Shown here in pieces: positions 28,401-42,013 of a stretch of 64,000 bases of DNA. This DNA is from Tubiluchus corallicola. Taxonomy: Eukaryota > Animalia > Priapulida. A model generated the notes under the pieces. That model worked only from the letters and a program-made list of their open reading frames with translations. It did not search any database and was not told the origin of the DNA. A program made the position numbers and the translations under genes. The stretch spans positions 620,001 through 684,000 of the forward strand of contig JAQGDQ010000048.1 in the NCBI GenBank assembly GCA_030141605.1, written 5' to 3'. Position 1 is the first letter of the stretch. Each line of letters starts with the position of its first letter.

Positions 28401-30097
28401 CAATTGAAGCTCACCCGACCAGCCTAATTAGGTTAATATACTTTTCCCATTACTGTGCATTCTTAAATTCTTCATTTTCTACTTTCTGATCTGGTTGATT
28501 TATTGTTATTGGCATCTTGTAAAATAAGGTGCTTGTTTCGATTGTGTTCATGCACGTCTGACACAAATCCCAGAATATGTTGCATATAAATTAATAAATA
28601 TTAGGCAGCAGCTTTGCCAAGTTTGTCAGCAGTGCTGGAAAATTAGCTTCATTTTGTCATATTCACACAAAGATGTTTTTAGGAGAATTAATGTGCCATG
28701 ATAGCTATTAGTTGCCTGAGTGTGCCTGCCCAGTGTATGTGCGCGCATGTGAAATGTGTATGTGTGTCCATTAATTGCCTTAAAAGCTCAAGTTGTTGGG
28801 TCACAATTTTTTCAGCGCCTCGTTTAGGATACCTGTAAGCCGGATGTCTTTCTTAATACGTGTCTTGGATGTCTTACAAAAAGGTGCAGCTTCTAAGTCA
28901 ACTACTCTGTTCAAATGTAGTGACATATTACTAGTAGAGGGTTGTTGGCTGTGACCGATTGTGTAGCACTGTACTAGAGTGAGAACTCTTACCAGCTTTG
29001 TCAAGTTGAATCAGCAGCTTAAACTTCTGAGTATGTGTCATGAAAGCACTGGTTCTGGGTTCAAATCCTGGTTTATTCATAATTTTTCAGTGTCTCTTTC
29101 TTCAGTTAATTACCCATTATGGCTAATTTTTGTCAGCGTGATGTCTTTAGGTGTGTGCGCCTGTTGGTTGAGGAGGAGAATTGGAAGTAGCCTACATATT
29201 TCATCACTTTGCTGTACCATCTACCATATTACCATGTTAAAATTGACGAAGATCATAAGTTCTAGCCTTTATCCTTCCACTCGTTTAATGTCTCACAGAT
29301 CTTTTTGTTTTTATGAATGATAGTTTAATTTTTTCAGAAGCTGCTATCTGAGAGGAGTTATTGTGCTATAAGAAGTGAACCTCTTTTCACTGTTATATGA
29401 TGTTCTAATGTGTAATAGAAGGCGATACTCGAATTACTGCAATTAATTTTGATGACTATGTCTCCTCTTCAGCTTCTGCAAAATTTTCACCAAAATTAAC
29501 TAATAAAAGATTAGGAAATAATTAATGTGGAAGCGCACTGCTTTAAAACCACATCATTAGGTATGGCGCTGTTTGTGCAGCACATCTGTTAATGAGGCAC
29601 GCTGCTAAAACATTGTTATTGAAACGGTAAGCTAGTGCAATGAGAGAAACGTAATGAAGACTGTTGAGCAAAATAAAGAACTAATTATCTTAAGCGAGGT
29701 CACAGCAATTTGTCAAGTTGTGAGCTTGTTGAAGATAACTGTGTTCGCTAATTTTTAGGAGCACACTTAGCAAACCAAGCATGGTAATTTGTGCAGGCAT
29801 TCTCATTAGACGCACTATTACTCATACATACTCGTATTTAGTTCTTCTCATATGTGTGGTGCAGATCTATGAGTAATACCATTAATGCCTGTTGTAATAT
29901 GTTGACAGATCGGTCGGGTCTATTATAGAATTTTCAATGTACGCAACTTTCAAACTGCAAATGTCATTAATAATGGAAATGTTATTAGTAACTAGACATA
30001 GTTGCCTAGTATTATGTAAGTGTCATACGTGCTTTGCAAAATCAATGTAACACGGCAATTTCAGTTAGTGGCTGTTCTTTCTGTACGCGACTAACTT

Positions 30098-32059
30098 GGT
30101 CATTCCGCTTAAAATGGACTAAATTTAGAAAAGGTTGAGTTGTGACCATGATGAATTTGGCTGAAACTTCTAGGATAAGTTGCACGAGTATTATATAGAA
30201 AGTCTTTGAAGTATTACGTTCATACAATTAATAGTTTCAAGTTATTAACTAATTAATGAAGAAAGGTGGTTACCTTTTTTCATGCCTCGCGAGTGTGTTT
30301 TTCTGAGAGCAAACTTTAATTAGCTACATCTTTCTTACCAAACTAGTTGCAGGCCTGAAATTTACAGCATGAACTCTCTATGTGTATGTACACATGTGCC
30401 AATTACAAAACTCCAAATTGGTGATCAAGTTTTTGTGCAATAGAGTGACAAAAACCCTAGCAAAAATGGCGTTAATTGTTTCGGGCCTCATTTGGCAGCC
30501 CTTTAGGCCCTGAAGGGATACTCCTATAAATTTAAGTTTCTATATGAAATCCTTTGTCACTTGCTTGTTTCAATTGTACAATTTACAGTTCATGCAGGTG
30601 CAAATTTTTTGAGCTAAGAGTCTTTCAAAATTAAAAATTGAGATTTTGGGATGTTTCAAGTCGTTATAACCTGGCTTTTACAATACTGAACAAAATATAA
30701 ATAGCACCATTAGAAAGAGCATCTAAGAATTAACAGAAACCTAAAATACTGTTGTGGTACTCTTATACATAATATGTTTTTTTATGTTCATTAATGCCAT
30801 ATATGCGAGTTCATCATGGCTGACCAACAGCCCATACACCCCTTATTAGACAATGCAAAGCATTGCAGGCATGAGTTACATGACAGTGAATGCTGTACAC
30901 GTATTGTTTGAACAGTAGCGGTGAAACCTTCAGTTTAGCTTTTTAAGTTATAGACAGTTATTTAAGTTATAGTGTTTTTGGCTTGTCCTATTTTTTAATG
31001 AAAACTAGTAGATAGTCATGGCAGCTGGTTTGACTTCATGCACTGTTGGAAAGCTACTAAAGTGTACATCTGGTTGTCATAGAAAAGGCTACACAAGAAG
31101 CGTAACAAGTCATGACTCCTTCTTTCAGCTGTTGAAATCTTTCAAAATTTCTGATTGTAGAAAAATCAAATGCTTGTATTCAGTTAAAATGAATTTTAAC
31201 CAATACGAGAAGCATTCTCTGCCGACTGCTAGAATATTTCACTATTTAATCAATGGCAGTCATAAATGAGCATGATAAGACAGTGACTATCGTCATTAGT
31301 GAAGGGGGCATTGCTATTATGGTGCTATTATGTAGTAGCAACCTGGAAAAATGTCAGCTTGAGCTTTCGTACTGCGGCAATATTTCTAAATAATAAGCAT
31401 GTAAACATTTTCTGGTGTTCAGATATATAGCAAATCTAAACATATTTTCAAACTACAAAAAATACGTTTTTTGTAACAGTACCACAACAGTATTTTAGGC
31501 ATTTGTTAATTTTTCGATGCTCTTTCTAATGGTACTATTTTACTCCACGTTGTGGTAGCAATCTGGAAATACCAGAGCCAGGTTTATAATGACTCGAAAT
31601 ACATGCAAAAATCTCAATTTTTAATTTTGGAAGACTCCTAGTTCTGAAAGTTGCACCGGAATCAACTATAAATTGTACACTTGAAACAAGCAAGTGACAA
31701 AGGATTTCACATAAAAACTTAAACTTTTAGGAGAGTATCTCTTCAGGGCCTAAAAGGCTGCCAAATAGGGCCCAAAACAATTAATGCCATTTTTGCTAGG
31801 GTGTTTGCCAGTCTATTTCATAAAAACTTGACCATCCATTCTGAGTTTTGTAATTGGCACATGTGTACATACACATCGAGAGTGCATACTGTAAATTTCA
31901 TGCCCGCGGCTAGTTTAGTAAGAAAGATGTAGCTAATTAAAGTTTGCTCTGAGAAAAGTGCATTAGGGAGGCACCAAAAAGTAGAACATATTTTGAAAGT
32001 ATGAAGCAAATCTGAGATGGTCACAACTAAAGACTTGGTTCATTTGAGATGGAATGACC
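30098..32059. mobile_element. ~2 kb non-autonomous foldback DNA transposon with very long inverted repeats
   Basis: ~30283-30760 is the reverse complement of ~31478-31973 (e.g. agagcaaactttaattagctacatctttcttac / gtaagaaagatgtagctaattaaagtttgctct). Outer termini GGTCATTCC...GGAATGACC. No transposase ORF. Confidence 0.85.
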
Positions 32060-33201
32060 TAACTGCAAATTCAGTAAGTTTAACTTAATTGCCAAATAAA
32101 GCAACTATTAGAATAACATCACGTCCAACTTAAAATAAAAGCATTTTTAAGTTGGTCTTACATTAGCTTCACTTTGTCAAGTTTAAGCCAACAAGTTTAA
32201 CGGAAAATGAACGGCAGAAAAGTCGAGGTGACAGTTAAAATGGTACCTGAAGGAATGCATTTTAATGTAATTGAAATAAATAAACAATTAAGCTAATCTG
32301 AGGCTGGAAATTTCAGCACCTATGCCAATAAATGCATTCCTTTAAGTTTAAAAACAAGTTCTGGAATTGAAGAACAAGTCAAAGACAAATGCAATATTCC
32401 CTGCTGAAAAAGGACAGTATCACTCTAATGCTAATTTAAACTCCATGTTAGACGGTAAATTTTCAAAATGTAGTTTCAAAAGCAGTTCTTTGTAGCTGTT
32501 GATGGTCTCAGACTGGAATTACATCATTATTCTTATCGCCTTGTTCTTCGTGCTTACATGTTACTTTAGGAAAAGCGGATATTTACAGGTTCTACGATTC
32601 TATTTGCGTAATTAAGCACTTGTCAAATTCAATCACAGATAATGCATTACATATATACGAGCAGGCTCAAATCGATTCAGCTCGCAGCGATAACGCCCCT
32701 CGGCAGCACCAGTTACATAATCCACTTCTTATTAATTAGGAAAATTTGCGCAATTTGCTTTAGACCTTGCTAACCATTAATAAGTCGTGTTTTCAGAGGT
32801 TTAATTTATCAGGTCCCACAATGAACTTCTTTGCACTTCTACGTGAATAACTTGCTGTTACCAAGGAAATTTTTAATAAACTAATGATTTCTGCTGAGTT
32901 TTAAATTCAGTAAGATATACTGTCTGATGAAAAAAATTCTATTTGCGTATATTTTTAGAAAAAACGTATTGTGAAAATTGCTTAGAAATGATAAATTTCT
33001 GACGTGATTCGGCTGGCATTAAACGAACTACTTGGCGAACTAAAAACTTGTCAATAATAGATGGTTATAGCAAGGAAGGCTTCACGATTCACGCTTATAA
33101 CTCACAAGCATTAAACCGGCTACCTAACTCAGTTTCCTTGGTTTAGTGGTTTCCTAATTTTTTGAAAAGATTAAATTCAGTTTTTTTGTCAGTCATATTG
33201 T

Positions 33202-33207
33202 TTTATT
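33202..33207 (-). terminator. Candidate polyadenylation signal of the GPCR
   Basis: AATAAA on minus strand ~155 nt after the second (TAA) stop; AT-rich context makes chance occurrence plausible. Confidence 0.3.
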
Positions 33208-33360
33208 ACATTTTTTAGAAATCTACTTTTTATAACACAATCTAGAGATTTTAATTTTTGTTTATAAAACTGAATAGGTAATTCTGTTAATTACAGAAAA
33301 TGGAGTTCTTAAATTTTTGTCAAGTGTTAGGATCTCTGCTTTGATATGATTTTACTACAA

Positions 33361-33639
33361 TTAGAAATTTGTTGAATTGAATTTTACAACGTGGTTGTGA
33401 TTGCATAAAGAATCCTTGACACTTCCGCTTTCACTGTGTATGTATCTGGTAACAGCATTTCGGTGAATTTGAATCTCCCCCTCACTGCTTGCACTACCCT
33501 GTACAAATCGTACCACTTGAGGTAGATTTCGAGGTGCGTCCCCTCCACTTCCACTCCGCCGAGCCCCACCCAAATGCTGCATTTGGTGCTCCCTTTTGCG
33601 CTCGCTACTGCTGGATCGCTTTGGGCCTGCTGCTGGTTG
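33361..33639 (-). CDS. Putative stop-codon readthrough extension of the GPCR (92 codons + TAA)
   Basis: In frame after TGA: CAA CCA GCA ... QPAAGPKRSSSSERKREHQMQHLGG...KFNSTNF*. GC-richer than flanking non-coding DNA; CARYYA context. Confidence 0.6.
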   Translation of the reverse strand, partial: QPAAGPKRSSSSERKREHQMQHLGGARRSGSGGDAPRNLPQVVRFVQGSASSEGEIQIHRNAVTRYIHSESGSVKDSLCNHNHVVKFNSTNF

Positions 33640-34737
33640 TCATTTATACCTATATGATTGTGTCCTAAATTCTCCTGCTCCTAATTTTTCCTTCAGGAGT
33701 CGCAGAAGGGCACGTCGAAAATTTATCCCGCACATTGCATACAGTATGAAATTAATTGAGAAGTTTGTATAATATAAAAGATTAAAGAACCCTTGTAAAA
33801 GAGCCTCGAGGTCACTAACTTGAATCTCACTAATGTCTTTACCGTCTATAGTTCGTATAAACATTAGCATGCGAATGACGTAACTGGGTGTATTCAGAAT
33901 GATGAAAATGGTGGATATAAGTAGTAACAGCTTAGCTATGCTAATATGTGTCTTTGAGCTGACAATTGATGTATGCTGAATTTCTTTCGGTTCCAAGTTC
34001 AGACATTGTCTGTTGAACTCTATGATCTGCTTTGTGATGAGCACGTTCAGTATTAACACAGATATGAATGGCAAGATGAGCGTGAGCAGGGTGTCCACAT
34101 GGTTGAACACAGACTGCACGTACTTCCACTTTGGTAGCAAGTCGCAGACAAGTTCGTCTCCTTCACCACTTTCAACCATGCCGGCCGTCCACATGGTGTA
34201 ACTATATAGCACCATGGCTAGTAGGGTCAACCCTGCAATGACCGATTTCGCCCGCGACACCGTGCACATTGCTGGCCGATGCAGCGGGTAGCATACCGCC
34301 ACAAATCGTTCCACGGTGAAGGCAACAATGAACCAAACTGACAGAAAACTGCACGTAGAAGACATGTAAATTAGAATCTGACAAGCACCGTTCTTGTCAT
34401 ACATGTTGATGCCTAAGCCGTTCAACCACACCATAATTAGCGTGATGAGGAAACCCGTGTCAGCGATAGCTAGAGCGGCTAAGTAGTAACTGGACGAGCG
34501 CGTCCTTAAATAAGTGAAAATAAATACAACAAACGAGGTTAGATTGCCAAGAATCCCGACGATTATAATGATCGGCACGAAATATAGATCCATCAGTCTA
34601 AGTATCTCAAAAGCGTTCTCGTATGGCAAGAGTGTATCGTTGTAGAATATATGCGAGCCGTGCGACCGCACCTCACTAGTGATAATGCTGTCATTGTTTT
34701 CCTGCATTTCAGTAACATTGCCTCCTATTCTTATCAT
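33640..34737 (-). CDS. Class A neuropeptide GPCR, CNMamide receptor-like (FMRFamide-receptor-like group), single coding exon
   Basis: 365 aa with 7 hydrophobic segments. N-terminal N-glycosylation sequons (NVT, NDS, NDT); TM1 GN; TM2 SSSYYLAALAIADTGFL; TM3 SFLSVWFIVAFTVERFVAVCYPL..MCTVSRAK; TM6 LNTP; TM7 NFSINFILY; helix 8 FRRAL; candidate TM3/ECL2 Cys pair. These motifs match arthropod CNMa receptors as recalled. Confidence 0.9.
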   Translation of the reverse strand: MIRIGGNVTEMQENNDSIITSEVRSHGSHIFYNDTLLPYENAFEILRLMDLYFVPIIIIVGILGNLTSFVVFIFTYLRTRSSSYYLAALAIADTGFLITLIMVWLNGLGINMYDKNGACQILIYMSSTCSFLSVWFIVAFTVERFVAVCYPLHRPAMCTVSRAKSVIAGLTLLAMVLYSYTMWTAGMVESGEGDELVCDLLPKWKYVQSVFNHVDTLLTLILPFISVLILNVLITKQIIEFNRQCLNLEPKEIQHTSIVSSKTHISIAKLLLLISTIFIILNTPSYVIRMLMFIRTIDGKDISEIQVSDLEALLQGFFNLLYYTNFSINFILYAMCGINFRRALLRLLKEKLGAGEFRTQSYRYK

Positions 34738-34802
34738 TTTGACGCCATTTTTTGTTTATTCTCACTTTTTGCTCTTCCGGTTTTTAAGTTTTTAGTGTCC
34801 AT
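34734..34802 (-). promoter_or_regulatory. uORF (22 aa, MDTKNLKTGRAKSENKQKMASK*) whose TGA overlaps the GPCR ATG
   Basis: Minus strand: aaaATGgac...aaaATGgcg tca aaA TGA ta. Two in-frame uATGs (34802, 34748); stop at 34736-34734 overlaps main ATG at 34737-34735. Confidence 0.6.
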
Positions 34803-34820
34803 TTTCTATTTCTTTTGCTT

Positions 34821-34840
34821 CCTGTAAGCAAAAAATTTGA
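34821..34840 (-). other. Probable splice acceptor of the GPCR coding exon
   Basis: Minus strand aatttttt gcttacag|G, 84 nt upstream of the ATG; implies non-coding 5' exon(s) further right in the window. Confidence 0.6.
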
Positions 34841-37800
34841 AGATGTGTTAACAAATTTGTCAAAAATTAATAACTAATATTCCTAAGTTTTGAACTTTTA
34901 ACATTGCCTTTTTTATAATTTTTAGCTGAGGACAAACTAACTGATGACTGGGCTGTAACAGTATTATGGGATTATGAGGTGACGACGAGTGTGAGAATAG
35001 GTTTTTTCCTCTTGAAAATGAGGTTGATTTATAAACTCGCAATTCCGGGTGGGAACGTATCTAGATGAGACTAACTGAGAGAACGAGGATCTACTAAGAA
35101 AACCTGTCTCTTAATACGTTGTTTTTTATCCCCAAATGCATGTGCAAACCTTGGCCAACCGTTATCCAGTTCCCAAGTAATTCTCCAAATACATATAAGT
35201 GCCGGCTTCCAGTTCTGAAAAAATCCGATCTTCTTAGCCACTGTCCGTCCCTTTCTTTGAAATTTCAGGGTTCACAACACGTACGTTTGACGTCATTTAC
35301 TTGCGGTTGACACAATTTTGGAACAGTCACTTCAAAGCGGAGTCGATTGATTACATTTCTGATAATTAATGACACCAGATTCTGTCATTATTGCTGCCTA
35401 TAATGAAGCCAGCAGTATTGATATTTTACATGCCTCTGGCATAAAGCGCCACAGCCAAAGCAATTAACTGGATAAACACTGCCGCTGCTCAATAATTTGT
35501 CTTGTTTATTACTACACTGACTAATTTAGGGCTTTTTGTTCGTCTTACCTTATGTATTAACTGTAGAAATTCATGGAAACCATGATCGAAGTTTACAGTC
35601 GAAGTTCGCTTATATAAAATGAAAAGTTTGTCGATTTTGACGGAATTTACTCACATTTTATTCATTACCTCCCCTAATTATCAGTGTTTAATAAAACATT
35701 AAATTGCGTAAATATTCGAGGGAAGCGCCATAGTAATTTATGCGTATCTGTAGGTTGGCATCATTTTATGTCATTTAAGTAAGCGTTTCTTTTTAAATTT
35801 TCACAACGTTACACAAATGTTCTGAATTTTATTACTTTGTTATAAAATCAGCAGATATGTACTTTTAGAACATTTTATTTCTTTTCAAATAAGCGAATAA
35901 ATGCTCGGAAGTAAAAAAAGCTTGATTCGTCTGCAAACGTAGTGCGCATAATATCGGTTATTCAGTCAGTGTTAAAAGAAATACAAATCCAGAATTTGTT
36001 GCTTAAAGAAGTGATTTAGGCACTCACGTTGTTTGGCGTTAAGGAGTAAGATATTGCTACATGAGATGGACCCATCGTTTTTTTGTATAAATGTCTGAAA
36101 ACAGCTGATATCACAGATAGTAATAAATAACACATGTACAATCAAGTGTATATGCATGCACGTCAGTGACATTCTCGGGAGATATAAAAGAATTTTAGAC
36201 GCTTTTCCTCAGTGAAGCAATGCATTTTTCACTTCGCTGGATTGATGCAACTCTAGCTAAAATTTTATTCTTCCCACGGATGAAATTCATCATCTCCGGA
36301 GAGAAAAAGCTATTTTGAACCCTCGAATCTATCATTCCGCTCGCTTTATGGAAATGCTAAGCTAGACCATTTGTTTGCGAGAAATTTCGGTGCCATAATA
36401 TAAAGAGTGCCACAGCTTCAGAAGTCACTCGAGCTTTCTTGATTCTATGATTCCATTTACTGTAAAAATATTACTAAATTCTTTAGTCCCAAGCAAGGCG
36501 AATACTAGGGTGTAATAGTCTTTTAAAGTGAGCAACGGTTCGTGCATTATGATGTTTGTATCCACATCGCAGAGTGACATACATTTGCAAGAGTAAAAAA
36601 GTTTTACCATGGTCTAAGGCTAAGAGCTAATTTAGAATGAGAGCTTCATCTTTTCAACAAAGTTTTAGTCCAAGGCACTTTTGAAATACAGGGCATTATG
36701 CATGTTTAATTTATGGCTGCGCTTAAGTAATATAAAGCAGCGATACATTTATTTTGTACTACACAAGATTCGTTCCCTCTTTTACATAACGGTGTTAGAT
36801 TTATTCAAATTTTTATAAGGATATATATTAATATTATATACATATAACTTACACTTAGAAAACGTTGATTGCTGGATGAGATTTAGAGGCGTTAGAACTA
36901 CTTTTTGCCAGAAAAACTCCCATTTTTGGACGTGTTAATGGTTATTCAGCATTCGGGAATGGGAGCGTGTCTGGAGTAGAGCCTGGGTTAATAGATTTAT
37001 AGGCCACCTGAGGCTGAACATTATAGGTATTCTGGGAAGTTCTCGGCTTTCTGCTGTCGGCTTTTTCCCTACCCACCTGCCCAACTTGTTTGTATTAGCA
37101 AAGGTTTCAGTAGTGTATGTAATGTATTATTAATATTATATTTGCAATCTATGTGTAAGCCACTTATTGAGCCACCGAATTATTTCTTATATTATGCCAT
37201 GTGAAGTATAACAATATTTATTCTTTACATGGCACAACTGATATTTCATACGTTGAGCCGATATAAAGTATTTATTCTATCATCCTGCCGCACAAAGCAC
37301 AAATGATCCAAAAAGATCACCGTTAATAAAAAAAGCGTTGTCTTTTTTGCATTTGACAGTGAGTCACGTGATCTAAATTAACGAGCTGCTTTTCAAAATG
37401 CTATCACTTCTTTGATTTGCTTTATCCTTTACTTTCATTACATCGCAGTTAGTTTAATCGATGTGGGATTATGCAACCGACTGGGGGCGCAACTAAATGT
37501 ATTACTCATGTGTGGTGGGTGGAGCGGTATCCGAAATTTGGGGTCTTTCGTTCTGCAGTCTTACAACCTGCAGTTTCTCAATTAGTCAGACAAAATTTGC
37601 GTCATGAACTAAAAGCCAGATTTGTTTTAACAGGTGACCATCTATTTTAACAAAACATCTCCTTTTTGAGATCCACCCCTCCAATTTCTTTGCCGGGTCG
37701 TTTTATAGCTTAACAATTTATATCCAATCGAATAAAGTCGAATTTCATTCTCTTCAGTTCTTCTTAGAATTCAAAATGGTCGATCGTATCCGCCAACGGA

Positions 37801-40889: not shown

Positions 40890-42013
40890 CATGAGCTTTT
40901 ATCAAAACACTATTGCTTCCCTAAACACTATTCAACCATTGACGCCCTAATACACAGTACAGAAATTGGAGACATGGCTTAGATAACAAACATGACACTT
41001 TGACGGTATTTTTGGATTTAAGAAAGGCGTTTGAGAGTATTAATCACAAATTACTTTTAGATAACTTAAAAGCAAAAACAAATAGAAAACAACGAGTAAG
41101 GTTAGATACAAGCAACTTTTCAGACTGGGCCACATTAAACAGAGGTTTACAGCAGGGAATTGCTGGCTCCGTTATTATTTTGTCTTTATATAAACAATAT
41201 ATCCAATGTTCTGCAATCCTTGGATATCCTATACGTAGCTCACGAAGATATCCACACTGCACAAAATTGGGCCACACTTCTGTGGATGTACACTACTTCA
41301 AAAATCATCAGAGAAAATTATTAAAACTAAATCTCCTTCAGAACTATGCATTGAGATTGATAGCTGAGTTCTCATACACAGGTGTAAGGCAGGTAGACAA
41401 AAATTCAAGGCTTCAATAACTAACCTAAGCTAAACTTTTAACTTTCAGTCACCGAAGCACACAAAGACTTTTTTACTCTACTGTTTATATTTAAATACAT
41501 TGACAAGCCATTTCAAAATAACTGATTTAGCTTCCTACCAAATTCTATCGTCAATTTAAGAGCAAAAGTAATCTAAAAGAAATTAGGACAAATACCCACT
41601 GTGAAACCAACTCTATCATCAAGCAAGCAGTTTTACTTTGGAATTCTTTACCATTACAGGTTAAGAGAATCAGGTCCTTATCAGCATTTAAAACCAAATT
41701 AAAATCATTAATATTAATCATATATGAAATATCATCACACTAACATATACACCAATTCAGAATTTCTATATCTGCGGCCATATTAATTAAGTAAATCATG
41801 AATTTTAATCCTTGTAAACAGTTGTAAAAACGTTTTATTTTTATTCGTCAGTAATTTTTGTTTCCACTCTTTTCGTTAGTGCACAGTAGTTTAGATTGCA
41901 TTGACGCATTTGCCTTTAACAGTGTAAGTTTTTAATAACTAACACTGATTGATCATCATTTTCAGTGATTATCAATGTGTTTAATGTTAATGGCAAATAA
42001 AGATTATATATAT
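40890..42013 (+). mobile_element. Internally deleted L2/CR1-group LINE remnant
   Basis: TVFLDLRKAFESINHKLLLDNL, NRKQRV, ..RGLQQG, LQNYALRLI, later ..LWNSLP..; ends aataaa-gattatatata. Confidence 0.8.

What the first reader, a model, noticed from the sequence alone, without database searches (positions are those of the whole stretch)
33361..33642. Candidate programmed stop-codon readthrough in the CNMa-receptor-like GPCR (UGA-CAA-CCA plus 92 open codons)
Seen: the receptor ORF ends ...TAT AAA TGA CAA CCA GCA and the same frame stays open for 92 codons to TAA at 33361. The extension is GC-richer than the AT-rich DNA that resumes right after the TAA. Established: UGA-C is the leakiest stop context, and CAR-YYA is the TMV-type readthrough hexamer; CAA-CCA fits it exactly. 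Inference: two receptor isoforms, 365 and ~458 aa. The short form has a very short tail after helix 8. The long form adds Ser clusters (RSSSSE, SASSE, SESGS) that could be GRK/arrestin sites and ends in T-N-F, a possible class I PDZ ligand. A hairpin (CCAAAUG-CAG-CAUUUGG, ~33587-33571) lies ~50 nt 3' of the stop.
Basis: partly seen in the sequence, partly recalled or inferred. Interest (0 to 1): 0.85.

Follow-up and report, generated by a model that had tools for sequence, protein, structure and literature searches.

The report
Hidden tail behind worm receptor stop
A neuropeptide-receptor gene, likely from a priapulid (penis) worm, has a leaky-type stop codon followed by 92 more open, unusually GC-rich codons, so some ribosomes likely read on and make a longer receptor with extra predicted phosphorylation sites; this is about an even bet and untested, and the mechanism is already known from other animals.

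Summary
A single-ORF CNMaR2-type GPCR (34737-33640, minus strand, 365 aa) ends in TGA-CAA-CCA, and the frame stays open for 92 codons. The TGA is in contigs of three runs from two samples. It is not a recent nonsense allele: the two nearest relatives (one from Priapulus caudatus) end RYK at the same place, and 32 of 112 homologues end R-Y-x there.

For readthrough: TGA-CARYYA, an open-frame chance of 0.3-2.7%, GC reached by 0 of 224 other windows, weak codon periodicity (P 0.03), and no polyA signal before the second stop.

Against: the +1 frame is also open for 84 codons, synonymous codon use gives no support, folding is unremarkable, and GC falls before the second stop. None of five arthropod loci has the motif, and an ant-like orthologue has a 71-nt intron at this junction.

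The decisive test, priapulan orthologue DNA past the stop, could not be run.

Odds: readthrough 0.5, ordinary 3'UTR 0.27, alternative splicing 0.17. At best this is a new member of a known kind (OPRK1/OPRL1, fly neuronal readthrough). Its value is as a test of readthrough outside insects and crustaceans.

The parts
33640..34737 (-). ORF1: CNMaR2-type class A neuropeptide GPCR, 365 aa plus TGA, no intron in the ORF
   Evidence: Pfam 7tm_1 E 2.5e-25; 67% BLAST identity to P. caudatus XP_014666195.1; tree; model with seven TM helices and helix 8 at residues 338-351
33634..33642 (-). First stop TGA with CAACCA (CARYYA) context, preceded by AAA
   Evidence: Sequence; unchanged in contigs of X1, X2, X3; UGA-CARYYA gave about 15% readthrough in an OPRL1 reporter in human cells (PMC4132726 passages)
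33361..33639 (-). Candidate readthrough extension: 92 codons to TAA; 16 Ser/Thr; Gly/Ser/Arg/His/Gln-rich; ends STNF
   Evidence: GC 0.49 (first half 0.57); pLDDT below 50 over residues 372-458 (no alignment depth there)
33628..33635 (-). CAGCAGCA 8-mer, enriched near dipteran readthrough stops
   Evidence: 6 copies in the window, both strands; 23% of Anopheles candidates vs 8% of other transcripts (PMC5100048 sections 7 and 12)
33644..33651 (-). Possible splice donor AG|GTATAA inside the Arg-Tyr-Lys codons (cut between 33650 and 33649); basis of the splicing rival
   Evidence: Sequence; an ant-like orthologue has AG|GTACAT opening a 71-nt intron at the same junction; use in this species untested
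33570..33586 (-). 7-bp hairpin with 3-nt loop, 54 nt after the stop; probably incidental
   Evidence: -7.0 kcal/mol; a perfect 7-bp stem in 1.4% of base shuffles; regional z 0.51 and 0.32
33384..33680 (-). Alternative (+1) frame, open 98 codons in all and 84 past the first stop, ending ITTTL; hydrophobic (0.38) and not tail-like
33202..33255 (-). First polyadenylation-type hexamers (ATTAAA 33255, AATAAA 33207), both beyond the second stop
   Evidence: use not tested
34734..34823 (-). Predicted 5'UTR intron acceptor (T-rich ...ACAG at 34823-34822) and a 22-codon upstream ORF from ATG 34802 whose TGA overlaps the receptor ATG
   Evidence: Sequence; not tested with RNA

Best explanation
The gene encodes a CNMaR2-type neuropeptide receptor whose ancient stop codon sits in a leaky UGA-CAA-CCA context, so a minority of ribosomes likely insert an amino acid at the UGA and would add a 92-residue, predicted disordered, serine-rich tail.

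Shown: the receptor, the real and ancient stop position, the motif, the open frame and the GC island.

Inferred: the mRNA is unspliced here and runs to a polyA signal beyond the second stop. A near-cognate tRNA (Trp, Arg or Cys; recalled) then competes with the release factor at a few to about 15 percent. The six-base context is the likely signal; no stable RNA structure or SECIS was found.

The short form has 14 residues after helix 8 and 2 Ser/Thr in its tail. The long form adds 16 Ser/Thr, including SSSS and SASS clusters. It would therefore be more open to GRK phosphorylation, arrestin binding and internalisation, while ligand and G-protein coupling stay the same. Readthrough is probably lineage-restricted, because arthropod orthologues lack it at this stop.
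For: The TGA is in three runs from two samples. The stop position is shared with P0002 and P0003, and 32 of 112 homologues end R-Y-x 41-44 residues after the TM7 motif, so the downstream frame is not a fresh remnant of a longer gene. TGA-CARYYA occurs 9 times among 2565 TGA triplets in the window. It gave about 15% readthrough at UGA in human cells, with all six bases mattering, and top-tier fly readthrough genes favour UGA, C at +4 and A at +5. The open frame has a chance of 0.3-2.7%. GC of 0.49 is reached by 0 of 224 non-overlapping 276-nt windows elsewhere, and the first half (0.57) by 0 of 449 138-nt windows; that is unlike the orthologous ant-like intron (GC 0.25). Codon-position periodicity P 0.027, tail-like amino acids in frame 0 P 0.03 (frames +1 and +2: 0.45, 0.92), low hydrophobicity P 0.039. 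No polyA hexamer lies before the second stop. CAGCAGCA lies just after the stop.
Against: No orthologous DNA past the stop was obtained from any close relative, so conservation is untested. The +1 frame is also open for 84 codons. Synonymous codon use does not resemble ORF1 (P 0.96; GC3 0.40 vs 0.51). The fly-derived QEDGA-minus-LKNIF score is unremarkable (P 0.31). The tail-like signal lies only in the last 45 codons (P 0.029), not the first 47 (P 0.70), a pattern splicing could also give. The P values near 0.03 are several non-independent tests, uncorrected. GC falls before the second stop. Folding is not above chance. None of 5 distinct arthropod loci has TGA-CARYYA; their second frames are 62, 4, 2, 40 and 18 codons, so long second frames occur without the motif. 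The prior outside Pancrustacea is low (PMC5100048 passages). One contig of X1 has 1-nt and 2-nt deletions in the extension; both are in homopolymers and are absent from X2 (same sample, depth 178) and X3.
Confidence: 0.5

Rival explanations
1. Ordinary termination at RYK. The GC-rich stretch is the start of a 3'UTR that happens to lack an in-frame stop; any leak is basal and without function.
For: Given its composition the stretch is open in 2.7% of dinucleotide shuffles and 6 of 219 GC-matched window-frames. Two of three sense frames are open, and the GC boundary does not match the TAA. A short R-Y-x end is the family norm (74 of 112 tails are 45 residues or shorter). Arthropod loci L001 and L005 show 62 and 40 open codons without the motif, and L001's stretch is not kept in its relative L004. 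The scan examined many genes.
Against: It needs a strong leak motif (9 of 2565 TGA), a long open frame, a GC island unmatched in the window and frame-0 periodicity all to coincide.
Confidence: 0.27
2. Alternative splicing. The donor AG|GTATAA, 7 nt before the stop, is sometimes joined to an acceptor in or beyond the GC island and removes the TGA, so the coding-like signal belongs to an alternative last exon (for example acceptor 33494 in frame 0, or 33499 into the open +1 frame).
For: In ant-like locus L002 a 71-nt GT-AG intron starts at the same Arg codon, and the spliced reading equals the RESVSP end of named ant proteins such as P0034. Twelve hymenopteran hits diverge or stop right after this Arg. 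The tail-like signal lies only after 33499. In-frame YAG sites exist at intron lengths 39, 42, 45, 156, 165, 204 and 216 nt.
Against: The would-be intron is 57% GC, 14% T and 62% purine, against 25% GC in the ant-like intron. All ten acceptors within 300 nt have at most 9 pyrimidines in 16. The donor matches 5 of 9 consensus positions (consensus recalled). Arg-Tyr is kept at protein level in Daphnia-like loci as CGA TAY with no donor, so GGTA can be a by-product of the dipeptide. The only P. caudatus protein found, and P0002, end unspliced at RYK.
Confidence: 0.17
3. Other routes to translating the stretch: A-to-I editing of UGA to a Trp-reading codon, selenocysteine insertion, or a separate 72-codon downstream ORF from ATG 33582.
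For: The stop is UGA, and an in-frame ATG exists at 33582.
Against: No SECIS family match in Rfam over 30000-36000 at E up to 5 and no SECIS-like pattern in 2.1 kb downstream. The stop is not in a stable duplex. The ATG has C at -3, and the GC island starts 60 nt before it.
Confidence: 0.05
4. Assembly error or recent nonsense allele in a once longer receptor.
For: CNMaR1-type paralogues have long tails (17 of 18 are 49-130 residues).
Against: The TGA is in two samples, both close relatives stop at the same RYK, and 30 arthropod hits stop at the aligned place.
Confidence: 0.01

Closest known systems
OPRL1 and OPRK1 opioid-receptor readthrough in vertebrates (PMC4132726; passages read)
   Same: Class A peptide GPCR, UGA followed by C, C-terminal extension on the cytoplasmic tail, a short 3' context sufficient without RNA structure.
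   Different: Their motif is UGA-CUAG, the extensions are 28-34 residues, conservation across vertebrates is shown and readthrough was measured (31%, 13%). Here the motif is UGA-CAACCA, the extension is 92 residues, and nothing is measured or shown conserved.
Conserved and neuronal stop-codon readthrough in Drosophila and Anopheles (PMC5100048 sections 7 part 1, 12, 13 and passages; PMC13278127 section 7 and passages; bioRxiv 10.64898/2026.07.13.738141 passages)
   Same: UGA-C, A at +5, raised GC with 3-nt periodicity after the stop, CAGCAGCA near the stop, polar Gln/His-rich, probably disordered and lineage-restricted extension.
   Different: Those were called by PhyloCSF or ribosome profiling. 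Here GC does not peak at third positions, no stable structure follows the stop, and the animal lies outside Pancrustacea, where PMC5100048 found no abundant readthrough among the species it tested.
TMV-type CARYYA readthrough signal (as described in PMC4132726)
   Same: Exact CAR-YYA hexamer directly after the stop.
   Different: The viral class uses UAG; this is UGA in a cellular animal mRNA.
CNMamide receptor CNMaR-2 (PMC8955854 passages; named hits P0020, P0028)
   Same: Same clade in the quick tree (SH-aLRT 97), same TM7/helix-8 motif, short R-Y-x end.
   Different: ORF1 has no intron here, whereas the six arthropod loci lose their frame just upstream of TM7, as an intron would cause. The ligand is untested, and no readthrough was found reported for the family.

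Membership tests
Programmed (functional) stop-codon readthrough | The first stop is real, not an error or recent nonsense change | tested here: met
Programmed (functional) stop-codon readthrough | Leaky stop context (UGA-C; CARYYA or CUAG) | tested here: met
   TGA-CAACCA; motif activity at UGA from PMC4132726
Programmed (functional) stop-codon readthrough | Stop identity and context conserved in orthologues | tested here: inconclusive
   Position conserved at protein level. No priapulan DNA obtained. Absent in 5 of 5 distinct, distant arthropod loci.
Programmed (functional) stop-codon readthrough | Coding-type evolutionary signature past the stop (PhyloCSF, dN/dS) | not testable with these tools
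   No orthologous DNA past the stop; X3 shows no variant in the 279 nt, but fewer than one is expected at its diversity
Programmed (functional) stop-codon readthrough | Single-sequence coding signal specific to frame 0 | tested here: inconclusive
   For: P 0.027, 0.03, 0.039. Against: P 0.96, 0.31, 0.70 and an open +1 frame.
Programmed (functional) stop-codon readthrough | Not explained by splicing, downstream ATG or selenocysteine | tested here: inconclusive
   No SECIS. Acceptors are poor but a donor is present and opens an intron in an ant-like orthologue. No RNA across the stop.
Programmed (functional) stop-codon readthrough | Stimulatory 3' RNA structure (in some cases only) | tested here: not met
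   z 0.51 and 0.32; thirteen 60-nt windows, best z -1.34. Not required for OPRL1-type cases.
Programmed (functional) stop-codon readthrough | Extended protein or ribosome footprints detected | not testable with these tools
   No ribosome profiling or proteomics available
CNMamide receptor (CNMaR-2 type) | Class A 7TM fold | tested here: met
CNMamide receptor (CNMaR-2 type) | Groups with named CNMaR-2 sequences | tested here: met
   quick IQ-TREE, 38 of 120 listed hits plus query counted, SH-aLRT 97, midpoint root, no outgroup of other receptor families
CNMamide receptor (CNMaR-2 type) | Activated by CNMamide | not testable with these tools

The most novel reading that the evidence does not exclude
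Priapulan worms use programmed readthrough as a neuronal isoform switch: this receptor makes a tail-less, slowly desensitising form and a phosphorylatable, arrestin-recruiting form from one mRNA. With other candidates in the same genome, this would mean frequent readthrough is not a Pancrustacean invention but dates from the ecdysozoan ancestor or arose twice.
Probability: 0.15. Interest if true: 0.7.

Novelty: new member of a known kind. Interest (0 to 1): 0.42.

Why it matters
Readthrough on GPCR tails is known (OPRL1, OPRK1), so the mechanism would not be new. Two things would be. First, it would be the first case I could find in a priapulan or in the CNMa receptor family (searches). Second, PMC5100048 places the origin of abundant readthrough after the split from centipedes; a confirmed case in a priapulan, with a genome-wide three-frame test, would directly test that boundary. 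The short and long forms differ almost only in phosphorylatable tail, which makes a clean natural pair for arrestin assays.

Tried and rejected
No own genome is held, so no genome-wide three-frame test or codon model was possible.

Homologues of the extension: none by word search among 50-161 aa proteins. The phmmer search over 1.84 billion representatives gave 3 hits, all repeat-rich proteins that look like SRCR repeats (label recalled) matched on about 36-45 residues, rejected as unrelated. No Pfam family, no usable Atlas hit. A search for short fragments of residues 262-458 gave 5 hits, four hymenopteran and one unnamed, none with a similar tail.

Priapulan orthologue DNA: none in metagenome contigs with P0003; the TM7 pattern gave 6 arthropod-like loci there, and 0 in genome and viral contigs.

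No RNA holder listed. Run X6 (RNA is a guess) has one 156-nt piece at 33680-33835 and X5 one at 34296-34657; neither reaches the stop, so they say nothing on splicing or conservation.

Hairpin as stimulator: rejected as unsupported. SECIS: not found. PDZ ending: uninformative, both open frames fit. X1 deletions at 33594 and 33540: treated as homopolymer errors.

CG33696/CNMaR was not found in 2 supplementary files of PMC5100048; file 1 could not be searched and may hold the candidate lists. One subgroup regular expression matched nothing and was not used. The careful tree did not finish; the quick tree was used.

Full report
Observation. On the minus strand an uninterrupted ORF runs from ATG 34737 to TGA 33642-33640 (365 aa). 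It is followed by CAA CCA and 92 sense codons to TAA 33363-33361. Contigs of three runs cover the stop without a variant: X1 and X2 from one sample, which may be the window's source, and X3 from a second. One X1 contig (depth 9) lacks 1 base at 33594 and 2 at 33540. Both lie in homopolymer runs, and X2 (same sample, depth 178) and X3 lack these deletions, so I treat them as errors.

What the gene is. Pfam gives 7tm_1. The best hits are an unnamed Logan protein P0002 (69%) and Priapulus caudatus XP_014666195.1 (P0003, 67%); the rest of the 120 listed (of 448) are mostly arthropod CNMa-type receptors. A quick tree of 38 rows groups the window with P0002 and P0003 (SH-aLRT 99), inside a clade (97) that holds thrips CNMamide Receptor 2, apart from CNMa Receptor 1. 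The animal is therefore likely a priapulan other than P. caudatus. The fold model shows seven helices and helix 8 at 338-351, leaving 14 residues in the short form. Residues 372-458 have pLDDT below 50, partly because no homologue aligns there.

The stop is old. P0002 and P0003 both end HRYK, aligned with the window's YRYK. Of 120 listed hits, 112 have the TM7 motif; 32 of these end R-Y-x 41-44 residues after it (2 priapulan-like, 30 insects and decapods), and 74 have tails of 45 or fewer. A recent nonsense allele is excluded. Any coding-like character past the stop must be maintained now, or be chance.

Is the extension more than chance? An open run of 92 or more codons follows 25 of 8557 stops in the window (0.3%), and appears in 0.5% of base shuffles and 2.7% of dinucleotide shuffles, and in 6 of 219 GC-matched overlapping window-frames. 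TGA-CARYYA occurs at 9 of 2565 TGA triplets; 9 is itself the chance level for the window. The stretch is a GC island: 0.49 overall and 0.57 in the first half, matched by 0 of 224 and 0 of 449 windows outside the gene. Frame-0 signals are modest: periodicity P 0.027, likeness to 33 homologue tails P 0.03 (frames +1 and +2: 0.45, 0.92), low hydrophobicity P 0.039. CAGCAGCA starts 5 nt after the stop, and the first polyA-type hexamers lie beyond the second stop.

Results against. The +1 frame is also open for 84 codons, and the GC change point (95% interval 33384-33502) lies before the TAA. Synonymous codon use is unlike ORF1 (P 0.96). The amino-acid score taken from fly readthrough genes gives P 0.31. 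The tail-like signal is only in the last 45 codons (P 0.029 against 0.70 for the first 47). Folding is at chance level; the 7-bp hairpin occurs in 1.4% of shuffles but is weak and 54 nt away. These tests are not independent and are uncorrected.

Orthologous DNA. No priapulan DNA could be reached. A TM7 pattern gave six metagenome loci, five distinct, all arthropod-like. Their stops and second frames are TAG-C 62, TAA-T 4 (twice), TGA-T 2, TAG-G 40 and TAA-A 18 codons. None has the motif, and the two Daphnia-like loci do not share an extension. Readthrough at this stop is thus not shared across these arthropods. This says little about priapulans, since fly extensions are reported to be lineage-restricted (10.64898/2026.07.13.738141, passages).

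The splicing rival. In ant-like L002 the Arg codon opens a 71-nt, 25% GC GT-AG intron, and the spliced reading equals the RESVSP end of named ant proteins. The window has AG|GTATAA at the same junction. But the Daphnia-like loci encode Arg-Tyr as CGA TAY with no donor, so the donor may be a by-product of a conserved dipeptide. The window's would-be intron is 57% GC and 14% T, all ten acceptors within 300 nt lack a pyrimidine tract, and the single P. caudatus model ends unspliced. No SECIS was found.

Mechanism (inferred). The mRNA likely includes the extension. At UGA-CAACCA a near-cognate tRNA would outcompete release factor in a minority of cases. In an OPRL1 reporter, UGA-CARYYA gave about 15% and all six bases mattered (PMC4132726, passages). 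Top-tier fly readthrough genes favour UGA, C+4 and A+5 (PMC13278127, section 7). The short receptor has 2 Ser/Thr in its tail; the long one gains 16, with SSSS and SASS clusters. From general GPCR biology (recalled), this would make the long form the one that is phosphorylated, binds arrestin and is internalised. The T-N-F ending fits a class I PDZ pattern (recalled), but so does the +1 frame's T-T-L, so it carries little weight.

Comparison and novelty. It would work like OPRL1/OPRK1 and fly neuronal readthrough; membership is unproven because conservation and translation were not testable. I found no paper joining readthrough with Priapulus or with CNMaR. None of the 20 listed of 426 papers in a broader search held the phrase 'stop codon readthrough'. 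The fly gene was not in two supplement files of PMC5100048, and a third could not be searched. That paper found abundant readthrough only in Pancrustacea among 52 species (passages); I did not see its species list. Earlier AI notes on this genome list two more candidates, Shaker and IDH1. I did not check them; they are leads, not support.

Verdict. A real, reasonably strong single-genome candidate. My odds are judgement, not computed: readthrough 0.5, ordinary 3'UTR 0.27, alternative splicing 0.17, other 0.06. New member of a known kind; interest 0.42.

Noticed in passing
window 34802-34734 (-): A 22-codon out-of-frame upstream ORF (second ATG at 34748) ends in a TGA that overlaps the receptor's first ATG (ATGA); it could damp translation or favour the in-frame ATG at 34707.
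   Followed up: no
L002 and L003, just after the TM7 match (about 2620-2700): Ant-like CNMaR2 has a 71-nt intron whose retention gives the RYI end and whose removal gives RESVSP; public ant and bee proteins carry both kinds of end.
   Followed up: partly
L001, about 199-390: A Daphnia-like CNMaR2 ends TAG-CAG-CCT with 62 open codons; not shared by relative L004.
   Followed up: partly
window 34262-34351 and 34483-34524: Diverged contigs (about 80% alike) in X1, X2 and X3 match these receptor segments, suggesting one or two paralogous receptors in the same species.
   Followed up: no
window 33691: X1 and X2 both read a different base from the window here, changing Lys349 in helix 8 to Asn; X3 matches the window.
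   Followed up: no
window 34296-34657 and 33680-33835: Runs X5 and X6, under the same species label as X1, match the receptor at only about 91% and 96%, hinting at a cryptic relative.
   Followed up: no
window about 40900-42000: High-copy repeat (summed depth above 1000 in X3) with a broken ORF at 40943-41419 that reads like a reverse-transcriptase remnant (label from recall, not searched).
   Followed up: no
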